Part shown: piece after piece, positions 512-41,490 of the stretch
Position numbering within the stretch: position 1 is the first letter of the stretch
Layout of the letters: the number at the start of each line of letters is the position of its first letter
Sequence record: NC_073322.1
Length of the DNA stretch: 42,145 nt
Direction: 5' to 3' (one strand)
Origin: Escherichia phage vB_EcoS-Ro145c2YLVW
Notes under the pieces: generated by a model
Seen by the model: the letters and a program-made list of their open reading frames with translations, nothing else
What the model was told of the DNA's origin: nothing
Databases searched by the model: none
Made by a program: the position numbers and the translations under genes

Positions 512-540
512 TTGCACACTTGAATAGAATAGGCTACTAT
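512..540 (+). promoter_or_regulatory. sigma70-like promoter, conserved class A cassette (TTGCAC-17 nt-TACTAT)
   Basis: -35 TTGCAC, 17-nt spacer, -10 TACTAT; about 30 nt near-identical to cassettes at 10598-10626(-), 20344-20372(-), 41428-41456(+). Confidence 0.5.
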
Positions 541-570
541 TCATTTACACGAACGAGAGGAGAGACAGAG

Positions 571-10321: not shown

Positions 10322-10348
10322 AAGGCCCCATTATGGGGCCTTAGTTTT
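10322..10348. terminator. bidirectional hairpin terminator
   Basis: AAGGCCCCA-TTA-TGGGGCCTT stem-loop followed by AGTTTT; sits between convergent genes. Confidence 0.6.
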
Positions 10349-10571
10349 AAACTTCCACGTCTATCACCAAATCATCAGGCATGGTTATGACTATTTTATC
10401 GTTTTCATAGAACGGGCTAAGAGGCTCATTTTCAGGCTGCAAACGTAAAGTTAGCTTTTTATCACCAAAATAATCTATGTAACGAACCCAGTACCACTCG
10501 TCGAATACCTGTACCTTTTCTCCGGGGCGTACATCTCTAGCCTTCTTTTGATTCGTAAATCTAATCGGCAT
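10347..10571 (-). CDS. hypothetical protein (74 aa), antisense moron
   Basis: ATG with AGGAGG SD; driven by class A promoter at 10598-10626; ends at the bidirectional terminator. Confidence 0.55.
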   Translation of the reverse strand: MPIRFTNQKKARDVRPGEKVQVFDEWYWVRYIDYFGDKKLTLRLQPENEPLSPFYENDKIVITMPDDLVIDVEV

Positions 10572-10597
10572 AAATACCTCCTGTTTAAGTTAACTGA

Positions 10598-10626
10598 ATA
10601 GTACCCTACTATATTGGGGTGTGCAA
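10598..10626 (-). promoter_or_regulatory. sigma70-like promoter, class A cassette
   Basis: Minus strand TTGCAC-17 nt-TACTAT; near-identical to cassettes at 512, 20344, 41428. Confidence 0.5.
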
Positions 10627-10692
10627 ACTATTTGTTTATGTATTCCAGTTATTCCGCTCAATTGTAAATGTTGGAATAAACTATTCGAATAG

Positions 10693-10721
10693 TTGACTTT
10701 TCACTGAAAATGTGCTAAGCT
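10693..10721 (+). promoter_or_regulatory. promoter with extended -10 (TTGACT-17 nt-TGcTAAGCT)
   Basis: -35 TTGACT 10693-10698, TG motif then TAAGCT 10716-10721; preceded by GGAATA-type repeats. Confidence 0.4.
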
Positions 10722-10728
10722 CCACCTG

Positions 10729-10929
10729 AGCTTGTGAAGTATGAACAAGCGACCGCGGCGCGGGCAGGTAACGGAGCGGGACGTAAGTCCTGAGTGTAGT
10801 TACGCTGACGCGTTCGGAAGGGCCATACTCTATTGCTTGTGTAAAAAGTAACGGGTTTACTGAGATTACGCCGTTTCTATGTTTAAATGATAAGGCCTAG
10901 CGCCCCGCTTTATGGCGGGGCTTTACTTA
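10729..10929 (+). ncRNA. candidate small RNA or structured leader upstream of spanins
   Basis: About 200 nt between a promoter and a GC-rich hairpin (GCCCCGC-TTTATG-GCGGGGC plus T-rich tail); no ORF over 10 codons; internal hairpin GCTTGT-N9-ACAAGC. Confidence 0.3.
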
Positions 10930-10945
10930 TCGAGAAAGGGGAAAC

Positions 10946-11332
10946 ATGAATCTTAAAGCAACTGTCATGGCAGGAGCATGTTTCATCATCCTGGTTTACG
11001 CACACGGCATCTACCAGTATCGCAGCGGCTGGAACGAGGGCCGGGCGAATCTCATTTCGCAGCAACAGCAGAAAGCACAAGCTGAGTTAGCGAAGAAAAC
11101 ACAACGGCAGCAGCAGGATGAATCAAAGGCCGCGGCCGCTGACAACGAAGGCAAGACGAAATCAGAGGTGATTACCCGTGAAGTCGTTAAGTACATTAAA
11201 ACGCCTGGTCGCAGCGTGTGCACTTTCGACCCTGAGCGCGTGCAGCTCAAGTCCCGCGCCGTCGCAAACGCCAATTCCATCCCCGGATACGACGATGATG
11301 CAGCCGCCGTGCAAACTGGCACCGCCAAGTAG
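10946..11332 (+). CDS. i-spanin (Rz-like)
   Basis: N-terminal membrane helix then charged Q/K/E-rich coiled-coil region; o-spanin-like gene embedded in +1 frame. Confidence 0.6.
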   Translation: MNLKATVMAGACFIILVYAHGIYQYRSGWNEGRANLISQQQQKAQAELAKKTQRQQQDESKAAAADNEGKTKSEVITREVVKYIKTPGRSVCTFDPERVQLKSRAVANANSIPGYDDDAAAVQTGTAK

Positions 11333-11441
11333 CGACGCTGACGAGGATTTGGCTGTCGACGTTCAGAACGCCGAATGCGCACGGCAATTGCGCCTGAAAG
11401 TGTTCATGTTGCAGGATTACGTGAGGAATATTCTGGAATAG
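11178..11441 (+). CDS. o-spanin (Rz1-like lipoprotein)
   Basis: Signal peptide with lipobox LSAC, proline-rich mature region; starts inside Rz-like gene and extends past its stop. Confidence 0.6.
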   Translation: MKSLSTLKRLVAACALSTLSACSSSPAPSQTPIPSPDTTMMQPPCKLAPPSSDADEDLAVDVQNAECARQLRLKVFMLQDYVRNILE

Positions 11442-13277: not shown

Positions 13278-13293
13278 GGTTAAGATATAATCG

Positions 13294-13320
13294 GGAGGGA
13301 CTTCGGTCCCTCTTTTCATT
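13294..13320 (+). terminator. rho-independent terminator
   Basis: GGGAGGGAC-TTCG-GTCCCTC hairpin followed by TTTTCATTT. Confidence 0.65.
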
Positions 13321-15703: not shown

Positions 15704-16102
15704 ATGACAACATTTGAACAGTCTATTCAGAATTTTATAAAGAAGGCCAAAAAGAACCCTGAACTGGTGGTTCGCCAGGTCACGATTAAATTATATTCTC
15801 AGATTATAATGGCAAGTCCCGTTAAGACGGGTAGATTCAGGATGAATTGGCAGGTCAGTAATAACAAGCCAGCAACGGGTGTTTTAATAGCAGACGACCC
15901 TTCCGGGAGCAGAGCTATAGGTCGGATGACAAATTACGTTATATCATCTCCTGAGTGGGAAAATTTCTGTTTTACAAATAATTTGCCATATGCGGAAAGG
16001 TTAGAATATGGGTACTCACAACAAGCACCTCAAGGCATGGTCCGTGTGACTGTCGCCAGATTTCAACGTCTACTCAACGAAGCTGCGGCGAGGGCAGATT
16101 GA
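15704..16102 (+). CDS. tail completion / neck protein (HK97 gp10-like, putative)
   Basis: Size and position before major tail protein. Confidence 0.45.
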   Translation: MTTFEQSIQNFIKKAKKNPELVVRQVTIKLYSQIIMASPVKTGRFRMNWQVSNNKPATGVLIADDPSGSRAIGRMTNYVISSPEWENFCFTNNLPYAERLEYGYSQQAPQGMVRVTVARFQRLLNEAAARAD

Positions 16103-20313: not shown

Positions 20314-20343
20314 TTTAAACCCCTTCATTGTTGGTGTAAGTGA

Positions 20344-20372
20344 ATAGTACCCTATTATATTGGGGTGTGCAA
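20344..20372 (-). promoter_or_regulatory. sigma70-like promoter, class A cassette
   Basis: Minus strand TTGCAC-17 nt-TACTAT; 30/32 identical to cassette at 10598-10626. Confidence 0.5.
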
Positions 20373-23531: not shown

Positions 23532-24026
23532 ATGTCTTCTTTAAGGTTCCCAATGTCCCTTCGGCCAATAGTGTCGAAGGGGTACTCCCAAACGCGAGGG
23601 AGTAATATCTGGCGTACAGAAGTTCAGGGTGGCGTACCTCGCCAGGGGCGTGCTACATACTTTGAACCGGTGCCGATTAGCGTTACCCTGGTCGTATCGT
23701 CACTAGGCCGCCAGGCTTTCTATAGCTTCCTGAATAACATAGACGGCGGTGCGTCGTCGTTCATCATGCCCCACGACACCGGGTTAGGTATCGAAGACCA
23801 CCAGGTGCTTATTACGTCAGACATTAGTGACAGTACTGATGACGGTAAGAACTGGGTTATTACGTTCACAGCAACAGCAGAACGCACTGCGATTCAGGAA
23901 GACACATGTCTTACGAAGAATCTTCCTGATTTGTTCGGTTGCTATGGTGATTGTTTAGGAGGGTTCCTCAAAGCATACGGAACCGCGCAATCAACGTTTC
24001 CACGAATTTGGGACCCGATGCAATGA
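23532..24026 (+). CDS. minor tail protein (distal tail, putative)
   Basis: Position immediately after tape measure. Confidence 0.5.
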   Translation: MSSLRFPMSLRPIVSKGYSQTRGSNIWRTEVQGGVPRQGRATYFEPVPISVTLVVSSLGRQAFYSFLNNIDGGASSFIMPHDTGLGIEDHQVLITSDISDSTDDGKNWVITFTATAERTAIQEDTCLTKNLPDLFGCYGDCLGGFLKAYGTAQSTFPRIWDPMQ

Positions 24027-35888: not shown

Positions 35889-37147
35889 TCCAAATCCCCC
35901 TCTGTTACTTGATTCCACTCAGGCCGTTTATCGTCTGCCGTTGCAACGCATGGTGCTCCTGGCTTACGAGTAATGAAGTCTTTCAGTTCTTCTTCCGGCA
36001 CAACTTTAACAGCTTCGGTTGGCGTCATGAGCACTTGCTTCATTAGCGCGATGCCGTATTTGCTTGCCACTTTCTCCGCGTCTTTCCACGCGCGATTACC
36101 CGGACGACCTTCTACCAGCTTGTAACCCGGCACTTTCTTGCCAGAATGCAAAGCGGCAGCCATAGCTTTCTCAACCTTGTCGATGTGCTGGCGCAACAAC
36201 GGCAACTTCTCATACTCGGCGACGAGTTGCTCAGGTGTCAGTTCCAGTGCAAAATCGTCCTCCAGTTCTTCCGCCAGCACCGCGTTAACGGTTTTTGTAC
36301 GCGCTGCGCACTGTTCTGAGAACCGACACCACTGGCAACCATCGACCGACGGCTTGAAGTCCGACGCTTTCAGGTTCTTCTTTCCACGGAAATAGGCATC
36401 AAGGGCCCGCAGCGCTCGTTTCCGTGCGAACTTAGCGAACAGTTCCAGACCTTCAACCGAGATGTCCCACTCCGACGCGCCACCAGCATACGGCTGGAAG
36501 ATGACCAGGCGAACTACTGTGATGTTATAACGTCTCTTGAGTCGGCGATAAACACCGAGAGCGTAAAGCATAAGCTGCTTGTTTTCTTTCGCTTCAACAC
36601 GATGCCGTCCTGTTTTCAGGTCGCCTATAATGAGCATGTGCCCATCGGTGTTAGACAGCTCCTGAACGGCAACGAGGTCAGCAGTTCCGAACGTCTCAAC
36701 GCCTTCATAGCCCGGATGCAATACCTCAGTAAGATTGACGCGCATTTCCAGCTTGGCGTAAGTGGCAACGTCGATAATCGCTTTGCAGTAGTCTGTGTAC
36801 TTGCGCACCTGTTCAATCATGTCAGCCGTAATCAGTACCGCACCTTTCATCGGGCTGATTAGTGCCTTAATCTGACCTTTACCCTCATCCAGCACGTAAG
36901 CACCGACTTCACGCTCCAACGGCAGCGCAGTGCCTTTGATGTACTGGTTTAGATGTACCTCAGCTATTGTGTGCATAGCTGTGCCTAATACCGCAGATTT
37001 ACCTGACGTGTTAGGGATATCTTTTTCACAGGCCAGCGATGCGGCGCAGCTTAACCACTTTTTGGCACCTGACGGCGACAGTAAGGCGTGCACATCGTTA
37101 TTGCCGCCGCGTTCTTTTAAAATCATTCCGTACCTCCCACTGGTCAA
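35885..37147 (-). CDS. PD-(D/E)xK exonuclease, RecB/Cas4-like with Cys cluster
   Basis: GDLKTG...EAKENKQLMLYAL nuclease core and C-terminal CQWCRFSEQC cysteines. Confidence 0.7.
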   Translation of the reverse strand: MTSGRYGMILKERGGNNDVHALLSPSGAKKWLSCAASLACEKDIPNTSGKSAVLGTAMHTIAEVHLNQYIKGTALPLEREVGAYVLDEGKGQIKALISPMKGAVLITADMIEQVRKYTDYCKAIIDVATYAKLEMRVNLTEVLHPGYEGVETFGTADLVAVQELSNTDGHMLIIGDLKTGRHRVEAKENKQLMLYALGVYRRLKRRYNITVVRLVIFQPYAGGASEWDISVEGLELFAKFARKRALRALDAYFRGKKNLKASDFKPSVDGCQWCRFSEQCAARTKTVNAVLAEELEDDFALELTPEQLVAEYEKLPLLRQHIDKVEKAMAAALHSGKKVPGYKLVEGRPGNRAWKDAEKVASKYGIALMKQVLMTPTEAVKVVPEEELKDFITRKPGAPCVATADDKRPEWNQVTEGDLE

Positions 37148-41057: not shown

Positions 41058-41336
41058 ACATAATCTCACCTATTGACATTACGGAAATCTTCGTTTAAGG
41101 TGCTTCTATATCTTAGTTACTTTGATTCCTGTTCACCTTGTAAAACCCGCCGAAAACGAGCGCACAACGCGAAGTGTTAGGCGGCAGTTTACTGAACATT
41201 CGAATTATCGTAACTTCCCTTCCTTAGTATCTCAGTTGCCCTGGGCAAGCTCTATTCTCATCGGCAGCATATCTCTTAAGTAACTGATTTTTTTAATGTG
41301 CTGTAGATTCGCAACCGTAAAAATGTAACGATTATT

Positions 41337-41364
41337 GGGCAGGCTTAAGGCCTGCCCTTTAGTT
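41337..41364 (+). terminator. rho-independent terminator in non-coding region
   Basis: GGGCAGGC-TTAA-GCCTGCCC hairpin followed by TTTAGTT. Confidence 0.55.
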
Positions 41365-41427
41365 ACCAAGTAATAAGAATAAAGGCACATCCCTACCTGA
41401 AGAATCACAACGGCAACGAATCTTTGC

Positions 41428-41456
41428 TTGCATACCCCAATATAATAGGCTACTAT
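41428..41456 (+). promoter_or_regulatory. sigma70-like promoter, class A cassette (TTGCAT-17 nt-TACTAT)
   Basis: Near-identical to cassettes at 512, 10598, 20344. Confidence 0.5.
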
Positions 41457-41490
41457 TCACTTATCGAAACGAGACAGAGGGGTGAGGGTT

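What the first reader, a model, noticed from the sequence alone, without database searches (positions are those of the whole stretch)
10693..10929. Promoter-to-terminator non-coding unit upstream of the spanin genes
An extended -10 promoter is followed by about 200 nt with no ORF longer than 10 codons, several potential stem-loops, and a GC-rich hairpin with T-rich tail 17 nt before the spanin start codon. Either this is a stand-alone small RNA, or a leader with an attenuator that gates spanin expression and so lysis timing. It sits in the largest intergenic gap of the structural region.
Basis: partly seen in the sequence, partly recalled or inferred. Interest (0 to 1): 0.55.

Follow-up and report, generated by a model that had tools for sequence, protein, structure and literature searches.

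The report
Structured leader RNA before phage spanin genes
Between a host-type promoter and the spanin genes, this E. coli phage encodes a roughly 200-nt folded, non-coding RNA. The RNA is conserved in hundreds of related phages and is not in Rfam, but its function has not been tested.

Summary
The window is Escherichia phage vB_EcoS-Ro145clw (Kagunavirus, Guernseyvirinae). The described unit is real.

- **Promoter:** TTGACT-N17-TGcTAAGCT, at 10693-10721.
- **Untranslated RNA:** starts at about 10728.
- **Terminator:** a GC hairpin with an interrupted U-tract (10902-10929), 17 nt before the i-spanin ATG.

One detail is wrong. A 36-codon ATG ORF (10741-10851) does exist, but frameshifts, early stops and loss of the ATG in relatives show it is not a gene.

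The first ~108 nt (10727-10835) fold into a 5'-terminal hairpin and a 65-nt composite hairpin. Across Kagunavirus and Jerseyvirus copies, 14 of 28 pairs show compensatory changes and 97% of cells are paired, against 32-45% in slid controls.

Rfam, tRNA scans and E. coli genomes give nothing. Many Kagunaviruses carry a second copy of promoter plus core 11-13 kb upstream, at the head of the early rightward operon.

Upstream transcription is blocked by an opposite-strand gene and a bidirectional terminator, so this RNA is most likely the leader of the spanin-scaffold-capsid operon. The terminator looks real only in the Kagunavirus type.

Best reading: a cis-acting structured leader with a leaky terminator that also releases a ~200-nt RNA. 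A trans-acting sRNA or a put-like antiterminator role is not excluded. Control of lysis timing is not supported.

The parts
10693..10698 (+). -35 hexamer TTGACT
   Evidence: Read. Unchanged in all but one Kagunavirus-type copy (TCGACT in L012). Not flagged by the consensus scan.
10713..10721 (+). Extended -10, TGcTAAGCT (17-nt spacer 10699-10715)
   Evidence: The TG and TAAGCT are invariant while the spacer varies. The same design is seen in Jerseyvirus and phiEap-2 leaders.
10728..10729 (+). Predicted transcription start (G/A, 7-8 nt after the -10)
   Evidence: Inferred from promoter geometry only. The covariance-model match starts at 10727.
10730..10750 (+). 5'-terminal hairpin: GCUUGU / 9-nt loop / ACAAGC
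   Evidence: Predicted by folding. Four of its 6 pairs change on both sides between the Kagunavirus and Jerseyvirus types.
10753..10817 (+). 65-nt composite hairpin. From base to tip: lower stem CCG.GGCGC/GCGUUCGG; middle stem CAGGUAAC/GUUAC.CUG; conserved internal loop GGAGC / GAGUGUA; apical stem GGGAC-GUAA-GUCCU.
   Evidence: Ten of its 22 pairs show changes on both sides. About 97% of cells are paired, against 32-45% in slid controls.
10815..10824 (+). Motif CGGAAGGGCC. GGAAGG is invariant in every detected copy.
   Evidence: Alignments. The motif is also present in phiEap-2 and FSL SP-031.
10828..10835 (+). Conserved single-stranded CUCUAUUG, the end of the 108-nt core
   Evidence: Related 'UCUAUU' follows the structured part in the Shemara-type leader and in the 41073-41365 unit.
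10836..10901 (+). A+U-rich tail, with blocks GAUUACGCCGU and AUGUUUA shared with the Jerseyvirus type
   Evidence: Compared by eye. No function assigned.
10902..10930 (+). GC-rich hairpin (8 bp, -16.5 kcal/mol) plus interrupted U-tract UUUACUUAU: a moderate intrinsic terminator
   Evidence: scan; score +17. A compensatory C-G to U-A change in the stem occurs in L004.
10741..10851 (+). 36-codon ATG ORF inside the RNA; not a gene
   Evidence: Found. One search shows it truncated to 9 or 17 codons, frameshifted, or lacking the ATG in homologues.
10946..11332 (+). i-spanin gene. Its Shine-Dalgarno AAGGGG lies at 10936-10941.
   Evidence: (phrog_2536 Rz-like spanin, E 1e-56).
11178..11441 (+). o-spanin ORF embedded in and overlapping the i-spanin gene. 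It begins with the lipoprotein signal ...LSTLSAC.
   Evidence: GenBank annotates only 11295-11441.
10591..10626 (-). Divergent promoter-like 36-bp repeat, TTGCAC-N17-TACTAT, driving the opposite-strand ORF 10571-10347
   Evidence: four copies in the genome. The same element lies before the early operon in L003 and L055.
10322..10342. Hairpin (perfect inverted repeat) that closes the upstream head-gene operon. The scan scores it as a terminator only on the minus strand; read on the plus strand it scores -25.

Best explanation
This is the promoter-proximal, structured 5' leader RNA of the spanin-scaffold-capsid operon.

**Proposed mechanism**
1. Host sigma-70 RNA polymerase starts at about G10728 from a strong extended -10 promoter.
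2. The nascent RNA folds at once into a 5'-terminal hairpin and a 65-nt composite hairpin. These are followed by single-stranded GGAAGG and CUAUUG motifs.
3. About 65 nt further on, a moderate intrinsic terminator (10902-10929) stops part of the polymerases and releases a ~200-nt RNA.
4. The remaining polymerases read through and make the mRNA for the spanins, the scaffold protein and the major capsid protein.

I propose that the conserved 108-nt module acts in cis on its own transcription unit. It would set how much transcription passes this and later terminators, and/or protect the 5' end of the long mRNA. I do not think it times lysis specifically.

**Shown:** the promoter is conserved, the region is non-coding, the fold is supported by covariation, the position is syntenic across relatives, and a second copy sits at another operon head.

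**Inferred:** the start site, partial termination, and the cis mode of action.
For: **The fold is real**
- 97% of cells are paired.
- 14 of 28 pairs change on both sides.
- 0 of 500 shuffles reach the observed values for percentage paired, cells changed on both sides and covariation score; 2 of 500 reach the observed count of pairs changed on both sides.
- Slid controls give 32-45% paired (Kagunavirus copies only).
- Folding from the predicted start reproduces the structure.

**It is not a protein gene**.

**It is constant in position**
- In 179 Kagunavirus-type and 269 Jerseyvirus-type phage records, the unit lies directly upstream of the spanin start and in the same orientation.
- Leaders of the same layout lie before the spanins in phiEap-2, Cornellvirus, Hafnia and Pantoea phages, where the spanin pair stands between opposite-strand genes. 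There, no other promoter can serve the spanins.

**In this window**
- The upstream gene is on the minus strand behind a bidirectional terminator.
- No promoter-like site is found between the hairpin and the scaffold/capsid genes.

**The hairpin is at most a partial terminator**
- It scores +14 to +17, against +56 for a strong control, and the U-tract is interrupted.

**A second copy exists**
- Promoter plus core recur on the same strand 11-13 kb upstream, at the head of the early rightward operon, in at least 11 IMG/VR contigs.
- This fits a module that serves long operons.

**Terminators lie downstream**
- Terminator-like sites occur inside the late operon, for example right after the capsid gene at 13293-13314.
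Against: - No transcript data are available, so the start site, the 3' end and the read-through fraction are all unmeasured.
- The second-site copies are followed by their own hairpin or terminator and then by a separate promoter. That looks like a free-standing RNA gene.
- The primary sequence is far more conserved than the fold needs. It is 94-97% identical in Salmonella phages whose spanins are 75-81% identical. This would fit a trans partner, or recent exchange of the cassette.
- The terminator is not conserved in other genera.
- I found no conserved alternative pairing that could switch it.
- There is no similarity to the only known phage antiterminator RNA.
- I identified no cis target, such as an RNase site or an RNAP contact.
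Confidence: 0.5

Rival explanations
1. Stand-alone trans-acting small RNA. The ~200-nt promoter-to-terminator transcript is the functional product. It would bind a host or phage RNA or protein, for example through the invariant GGAAGG or the conserved internal loop. Read-through into the spanins would be incidental.
For: - It has its own strong promoter and a scoring terminator.
- The second-site copies, and the unrelated-core unit at 41073-41365, are each closed by a terminator and followed by a separate promoter.
- Sequence identity is very high across phages whose neighbouring genes have diverged.
- The 41073-41365 RNA carries CCUUCC, the exact complement of GGAAGG, and this is conserved in Kagunavirus and Jerseyvirus.
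Against: - Position and orientation are fixed next to the spanin start in every genus.
- The hairpin is not a terminator in the Jerseyvirus, phiEap-2 and Cornellvirus types.
- The U-tail is too short and interrupted for a classical Hfq-type sRNA.
- There is no extended complementarity to E. coli genomes.
- A 6-7-nt complement is expected by chance fairly often: 5 CCCTTCC sites in the window against 3.7 expected.
Confidence: 0.25
2. RNA-only processive antiterminator analogous to HK022 put. The 5' two-hairpin module would bind the polymerase that made it and make it resistant to the terminator at 10902-10929 and to later terminators of the long operon.
For: - The module begins at the transcript's 5' end, right after a sigma-70 promoter.
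- It consists of two stem-loops with conserved unpaired nucleotides.
- It occurs in two paralogous copies at the heads of the two rightward operons, as putL and putR do (PMC9378689).
- Essential, highly expressed genes lie behind a scoring terminator.
- No Q-like protein was found among 10 small ORFs tested.
Against: - The models find nothing at putL or putR of HK022, and Rfam gives no hit.
- The size and helix layout differ from put.
- In Cornellvirus-type phages the leader serves only a short spanin unit.
- Many Kagunaviruses, including this window, lack the second copy.
- There is no functional evidence.
Confidence: 0.12
3. Lambda-type late leader. A constitutive promoter would make a short terminated RNA (like lambda 6S RNA from pR' to tR') until a phage protein antiterminator loads near the promoter and lets polymerase into the lysis and late genes.
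For: - The layout is the same: strong sigma-70 promoter, ~200 nt untranslated, intrinsic terminator, then Rz/Rz1-type spanins and structural genes.
- The region just after the start is invariant between the two paralogous sites.
Against: - No Q-family or other antiterminator domain was found in the ORFs tested; not all ORFs were tested.
- No -10-like pause element is evident in the first 25 transcribed nt.
- Compensatory changes show selection on RNA structure, which a Q-type leader does not need.
Confidence: 0.06
4. Other roles: a processing or stability signal only (RNase III/E site, 5' stabiliser); a primer or R-loop RNA of a transcription-dependent replication origin; a riboswitch; or the 36-codon ORF encoding a small protein.
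For: - A 5'-terminal hairpin and a long, imperfect duplex with an internal loop resemble mRNA stabilisers and phage RNase III sites (inference).
- The second site lies in the divergent early/replication control region.
Against: - Riboswitch: the unpaired nucleotides are not conserved between the Kagunavirus, Jerseyvirus and phiEap-2 types, and Rfam gives no hit.
- Small protein: the ORF is broken in relatives.
- Origin: G-U pairs and strand-specific covariation point to RNA, and there is no direct evidence for an origin.
Confidence: 0.07

Closest known systems
Lambda pR'-tR' leader (6S RNA) upstream of S, R, Rz/Rz1. The related StxS sRNA is made by early termination of that leader in Stx phages. 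(Both from my own knowledge.)
   Same: A constitutive sigma-70 promoter, an untranslated transcript (about 200 nt in lambda, shorter in Stx phages) ending at an intrinsic terminator just before lysis and late genes. The short terminated product can itself be an RNA with a function.
   Different: - The lambda leader works through the Q protein and a DNA site. It is not a covarying structured RNA.
- No Q homologue was found here.
- Only the spanins follow here, not holin and endolysin.
- There is no sequence similarity. The weak model hit at HK022 pR' is a chance hairpin across the promoter.
HK022 putL/putR antiterminator RNAs (PMC9378689)
   Same: A promoter-proximal RNA of two stem-loops, made by host polymerase, present in two related copies at the heads of two operons, with terminators downstream.
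   Different: - No detectable sequence or structure similarity.
- The core is about 90-108 nt against about 70 nt for put.
- The host phages are virulent siphoviruses, not lambdoid.
- Activity is untested.
5' UTR stabilisers and phage RNase III processing hairpins, such as the ompA 5' stem-loop and T7 R-sites. (From my own knowledge.)
   Same: A hairpin at the very 5' end, a long imperfect duplex with a conserved internal loop, and repetition at operon starts.
   Different: No cleavage data are available. The conserved GGAAGG and CUAUUG motifs and the co-transferred promoter are not features of those elements.
Rfam 15 families
   Same: None.
   Different: There is no match at gathering thresholds in the whole window. 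At E <= 10 in 10500-11000 there are only two chance hits, to the terminator stem and to a coding stretch.

Membership tests
HK022 put antiterminator RNA | Sequence and structure similarity to putL/putR (about 70 nt, two stems with conserved bulges) | tested here: not met
   Model R1, searched with filters off over the whole HK022 genome, gives no hit in the PL/PR region. The best hit is 16 bits at pR'. Rfam gives no hit.
HK022 put antiterminator RNA | Lies just downstream of a sigma-70 promoter at the head of an operon that contains terminators, with paralogous copies at two operons | tested here: met
   The window itself has only one copy.
HK022 put antiterminator RNA | Cis antitermination that depends on the RNA polymerase beta' zinc-binding domain | not testable with these tools
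   Needs in vitro transcription or reporters in rpoC mutants.
Lambda-type Q/qut late leader | A Q-family antiterminator gene in the phage | tested here: inconclusive
   Pfam and PHROGs scans of 10 small ORFs found only a NinH-like protein. Not every ORF was scanned.
Lambda-type Q/qut late leader | A promoter-proximal -10-like pause element in the first ~25 transcribed nt | tested here: inconclusive
   By eye, no TAnnnT-type element is conserved between the site A and site B subtypes.
Terminator/antiterminator attenuator or riboswitch | An intrinsic terminator before the regulated gene | tested here: inconclusive
   Present in the Kagunavirus type (score +14 to +17). Borderline or absent in the Jerseyvirus, phiEap-2 and Cornellvirus leaders.
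Terminator/antiterminator attenuator or riboswitch | A conserved alternative pairing, or a ligand pocket of invariant unpaired nucleotides | tested here: not met
   A candidate pairing (GCGGG with the terminator's 5' arm) does not covary. The internal-loop sequences differ between types.
Hfq-type trans-acting sRNA | A Rho-independent terminator with a long uninterrupted U-tail, and a conserved accessible seed | tested here: inconclusive
   The tail is UUUACUUAU. GGAAGG is invariant, but no target was identified.
Small protein gene | Reading frame kept in relatives | tested here: not met
Structured non-coding RNA (general) | Base pairs kept through compensatory changes beyond controls | tested here: met

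The most novel reading that the evidence does not exclude
The promoter-coupled two-hairpin module is a second, unrelated family of RNA-only processive antiterminators (functionally put-like). It would be used by virulent Guernseyvirinae siphoviruses to carry host RNA polymerase through their long rightward operons. Alternatively, it could be one half of a pair of phage RNAs (GGAAGG in this RNA, CCUUCC in the 41073-41365 RNA) that couple early and late transcription units.
Probability: 0.13. Interest if true: 0.8.

Novelty: new member of a known kind. Interest (0 to 1): 0.5.

Why it matters
Guernseyvirinae (Kagunavirus, Jerseyvirus and relatives) are among the most often isolated E. coli and Salmonella phages and are used in therapy and biocontrol cocktails, yet their gene regulation is essentially unknown.

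A covarying RNA with its own promoter sits in front of the spanin and head genes in several hundred genomes. It is duplicated at the early operon in some of them. It is a concrete, testable handle on how these polymerase-less phages control late expression.

If it acts on RNA polymerase, it would be only the second phage RNA family known to do so.

It also corrects annotations. Several GenBank records call a spurious 36-38-codon 'hypothetical protein' here.

Tried and rejected
- **Rfam:** scanned at gathering thresholds and at E <= 10. Nothing relevant.
- **ARAGORN:** no tRNA or tmRNA.
- **BLAST against E. coli genomes and plasmids:** nothing except one phage-like 'plasmid'.
- **Small-protein reading:** rejected by frame analysis.
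- **RNA-mRNA duplex prediction** against all 66 translation-start regions: only long, loop-filled duplexes with no clear target, so uninformative.
- **A loose motif scan of IMG/VR** (ACCGCG...TYCGGAAGGSC): mostly chance matches. Only 3 of the 76 new loci screened were confirmed by the model.
- **Models R1 and R2** do not reach significance on the phiEap-2, Cornellvirus, Hafnia or Pantoea leaders (E 0.2-2.4). Their homology rests on synteny, promoter design and the shared CGGAAGGG motif only.
- **The 41073-41365 unit** is not detected by either model.
- **HK022 put:** no similarity.
- **The published Kagunavirus time-course transcriptome** (PMC12645636) reports gene-level classes only, with no coverage of this locus.
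- **A leader peptide** (GGAAGGG, 10 nt, then UUG): considered, because the spacing is kept in the Kagunavirus and Jerseyvirus types. Rejected because the ORF is 1-10 codons of unrelated sequence and the start codon is missing in other types.
- **A boxA-like reading of CUCUAUUG:** rejected because the positions that define boxA vary.

Full report
**Identity and context**

The window is a rotated copy of Escherichia phage vB_EcoS-Ro145clw (MG852086.2; Kagunavirus, Guernseyvirinae), at 100% identity. The plus strand runs through small early genes, holins and endolysin, then terminase, portal, head-morphogenesis and Hoc-like genes. That block ends at a hairpin at 10322-10342, which the scan scores as a terminator only on the minus strand. 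A 74-codon gene of unknown function follows on the minus strand (10571-10347). After a 374-nt gap come the i-spanin gene (10946-11332; phrog_2536, E 1e-56), the o-spanin, the scaffold gene and the major capsid gene. The finding lies in that gap.

**Check of the observation**

Read directly:
- TTGACT lies at 10693-10698.
- The 17-nt spacer ends in TG.
- TAAGCT lies at 10716-10721.
- The GC hairpin lies at 10902-10921, followed by UUUACUUAU.
- The spanin ATG at 10946 is 17 nt further on.

The scan tool reports the terminator but not the promoter, because the -10 matches TATAAT at only three positions. The promoter is credible for another reason. In about 40 distinct homologous sequences the -10 hexamer, the TG and the spacing never change, and the -35 hexamer is altered in only one copy (TCGACT in L012), while other spacer bases do change. 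Diverged relatives also have a promoter of the same design at the same place: TAGACT-N17-TGtTACGCT in SETP3, and TGGACT-N17-TGaTAACCT in phiEap-2 and FSL SP-031.

The statement that no ORF exceeds 10 codons is wrong. An ATG ORF of 36 codons spans 10741-10851, and some records annotate its equivalent. In relatives it is cut to 9 or 17 codons, frameshifted to unrelated sequence, or lacks the ATG altogether in 11 of the copies analysed. It is not a gene.

The two larger 'gaps' of the GenBank record hold unannotated ORFs. This is therefore the largest true non-coding gap of the structural region.

**The RNA structure**

Rfam (whole window at gathering thresholds; 10500-11000 at E <= 10) and ARAGORN find nothing relevant.

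BLAST shows the 374-nt gap at 93-98% identity in all but two of 179 phage records: the query itself at 100%, and one distant copy in a different context, PQ561396.1, at 82% over the core. Pattern scans of IMG/VR gave further variants.

From these I built a covariance model of the first 108 nt (10727-10835). In the window it finds this one site only, at 130 bits. With filters off, the same model detects the much more diverged element upstream of the spanins in Jerseyviruses:
- SETP3: 43 bits, E 1e-9.
- Shelanagig: 44 bits.
- Three IMG/VR contigs.

On the model alignment of 28 distinct Kagunavirus and Jerseyvirus sequences:
- 97.1% of cells are standard pairs, against 82.9% in shuffles and 32-45% when partners are slid by 1-3 columns.
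- 14 of 28 pairs show changes on both sides.
- No shuffle reaches the observed covariation score.

All three helices are supported:
- The 5'-terminal hairpin (10730-10750), with 4 of 6 pairs changed on both sides.
- The long lower and middle stem.
- The apical stem, seen as GGGAC/GUCCU, GUGC/GCAC, GGGC/GCCC, CGGAC/GUCCG and GGGCG/CGCCC.

The alignment was fitted to the model, which favours the structure. However, the MAFFT-only alignment already showed the same compensations, and they are visible by eye. Folding from the predicted start reproduces the structure (z = -2.8 for the core). G-U pairs place the structure on the plus strand, that is, in the RNA.

The unpaired parts that stay constant are:
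- the internal loop (GGAGC / GAGUGUA; GAAGC / AGCGUAA in Jerseyvirus);
- GGAAGG just 3' of the hairpin (10816-10821);
- CUAUUG (10830-10835).

**Distribution and paralogy**

The Kagunavirus-type sequence occurs in 179 records, including 65 Salmonella phages. The Jerseyvirus type occurs in 269 records.

In Salmonella phages such as S102, VSt10 and the ER series, the cassette is 94-97% identical to the window, while their spanin genes are only 75-81% identical. Either the cassette is under much stronger constraint than its neighbours, or it is exchanged horizontally as a unit.

Further relatives have a leader of the same layout before the spanins: promoter, 5' hairpin, GC-rich hairpins, a short purine motif, a tail, and a GC hairpin 20-27 nt before the ATG. 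These relatives are phiEap-2, Salmonella phage 'pink', Cornellvirus FSL SP-031, Shemara, St162, Hafnia TS33 and Pantoea AH01. phiEap-2 and FSL SP-031 even keep CGGAAGGG. My models do not reach significance on them, so I treat that homology as probable, not shown.

In FSL SP-031, Shemara, St162, SE1 and Pantoea AH01 the spanin pair is followed by an opposite-strand gene, and in all of these except SE1 the leader is also preceded by one. There, the leader's promoter is the only possible source of spanin mRNA.

At least 11 Kagunavirus contigs carry a second copy of promoter plus core 11-13 kb upstream on the same strand. It lies between a divergent helix-turn-helix gene and the early rightward operon. 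The two copies share the promoter, the first hairpin, the GGAAGG motif and CUAUUG, but differ by compensated changes in the long hairpin.

The second-site copy is followed by its own tail and hairpin, and then by a separate promoter-like 36-bp element, TTGCAC-N17-TACTAT. That element occurs four times in this window.

The window lacks the second copy. At the equivalent place (41073-41365) it has a different unit with the same layout. That unit is conserved in Kagunavirus and Jerseyvirus.

**What it most likely does**

Nothing upstream can transcribe the spanin, scaffold and capsid genes. The preceding gene is on the other strand, a bidirectional terminator precedes it, and no promoter-like site lies between the hairpin and the capsid gene. 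The RNA is therefore the 5' leader of that operon, and the hairpin at 10902-10929 cannot be a full stop.

I scored the hairpins with a classical terminator score, using the d'Aubenton-Carafa formula recalled from memory and ViennaRNA energies:

| Hairpin | Score |
|---|---|
| Kagunavirus type | +14 to +17 |
| Strong control | +56 |
| Jerseyvirus type | -3 |
| phiEap-2 / Cornellvirus types | -41 to -45 |

Partial termination, and hence a free ~200-nt RNA, is thus plausible in this phage. But the terminator is not the conserved feature of the family. The structured leader is.

I found no conserved alternative pairing that would make the terminator switchable.

Two facts argue against a role specific to lysis timing:
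- The operon includes the scaffold and capsid genes.
- The same module heads the early operon elsewhere.

My best reading (0.5) is a cis-acting structured leader that influences read-through or processivity and/or the stability of a long, highly expressed mRNA, with a terminated by-product.

**Rival explanations**

- **Trans-acting sRNA (0.25).** Supported by the free-standing look of the second-site units, by the very high sequence conservation, and by a CCUUCC motif in the 41073-41365 RNA that complements GGAAGG. That complement is close to chance expectation.
- **Put-like RNA-only antiterminator (0.12).** It fits the promoter-proximal two-hairpin design and the two operon-head copies (PMC9378689). 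It fails the similarity test and is untested functionally.
- **Lambda-type Q-dependent leader (0.06).** No Q-like protein was found among the ORFs scanned, and this model would not need RNA covariation.
- **Processing signal, origin primer, riboswitch or small protein (together 0.07).**

**Comparison with known systems and novelty**

The layout is closest to the lambda pR'-tR' leader (6S RNA) before S-R-Rz/Rz1, and to its sRNA derivative StxS. The design is closest to HK022 put. It is a member of neither: no sequence or structural similarity was found, and the defining activities are untested.

There is no Rfam family, and I found no paper describing it.

I rate it a new member of a known kind: a new phage leader or small RNA family. 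Interest is moderate, because the element is robust and widespread but its function is unknown. Public RNA-seq for a close relative (PMC12645636) could settle the transcript boundaries quickly.

Noticed in passing
window 41073-41365 (+): A second promoter-to-terminator non-coding unit. TTGACA (41073-41078)-N17-TAAGGT (41096-41101) drives about 255 nt, ending at the terminator 41337-41357 (score +14). It lies between the divergent HTH gene and the early operon and is conserved in Kagunavirus and Jerseyvirus. Its layout matches the finding: a conserved 5' part, a variable hairpin, a short motif, GCUCUAUUC, a similar tail, then a terminator. My models do not detect it. In many Kagunaviruses its 5' half is replaced by a copy of the finding's promoter plus core.
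   Followed up: partly
window 41217-41223 versus 10816-10822: The 41073-41365 RNA carries CCCUUCC, the exact complement of the invariant GGAAGGG of the spanin leader. The CCUUCC core is invariant in the three phages aligned. This could be an RNA-RNA contact or chance: there are 5 CCCTTCC sites in the window against 3.7 expected.
   Followed up: partly
window 10591-10626 (-), 20337-20372 (-), 41428-41463 (+), 512-547 (+): A 36-bp repeat that reads as a promoter with a conserved spacer, TTGCAyACCCCAATATARTAGGnTACTAT. Each copy lies upstream of an operon or of an opposite-strand inserted gene. The same element lies before the early operon in related phages (L003, L055).
   Followed up: partly
window 11178-11441 (+): The o-spanin annotated in GenBank (11295-11441, 48 aa) looks N-terminally truncated. 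The ORF from GTG 11178 begins MKSLSTLKRLVAACALSTLSAC, a lipoprotein signal with a lipobox. SETP3 annotates an 87-aa embedded o-spanin.
   Followed up: no
window 15704-16102 and 23532-24026 (+): ORFs of 132 and 164 codons are unannotated in MG852086.2. Relatives such as Shemara annotate genes at these positions.
   Followed up: partly
L056 4960-4982 (gammaproteobacterial MAG JBNKYV010000212.1): The 23-nt first hairpin GAGCTTGTGAAGTATGAACAAGC occurs exactly in an unrelated contig, inside a unit bounded by inverted repeats of about 45 nt. About 0.03 such matches are expected by chance in that collection. Its meaning is unknown.
   Followed up: no
window 10572-10945 versus 10946-11441 in Salmonella phages S102, VSt10 and ER1-ER20: The non-coding cassette is 94-97% identical to the window, while the adjacent spanin genes are 75-81% identical. 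This indicates mosaic exchange of the cassette with a junction at the spanin start. The slot between the Hoc-like gene and the cassette holds different inserted genes in different phages, annotated as sliding clamp, methylase or hypothetical proteins.
   Followed up: partly
L067 (HK022) 36891-36956: Weak model hit (16 bits) on the HK022 late promoter pR', caused by the GTTGGG...CCCAAC inverted repeat across the promoter. Judged to be chance. HK022 pR' and this promoter share only TTGACTTTT.
   Followed up: yes
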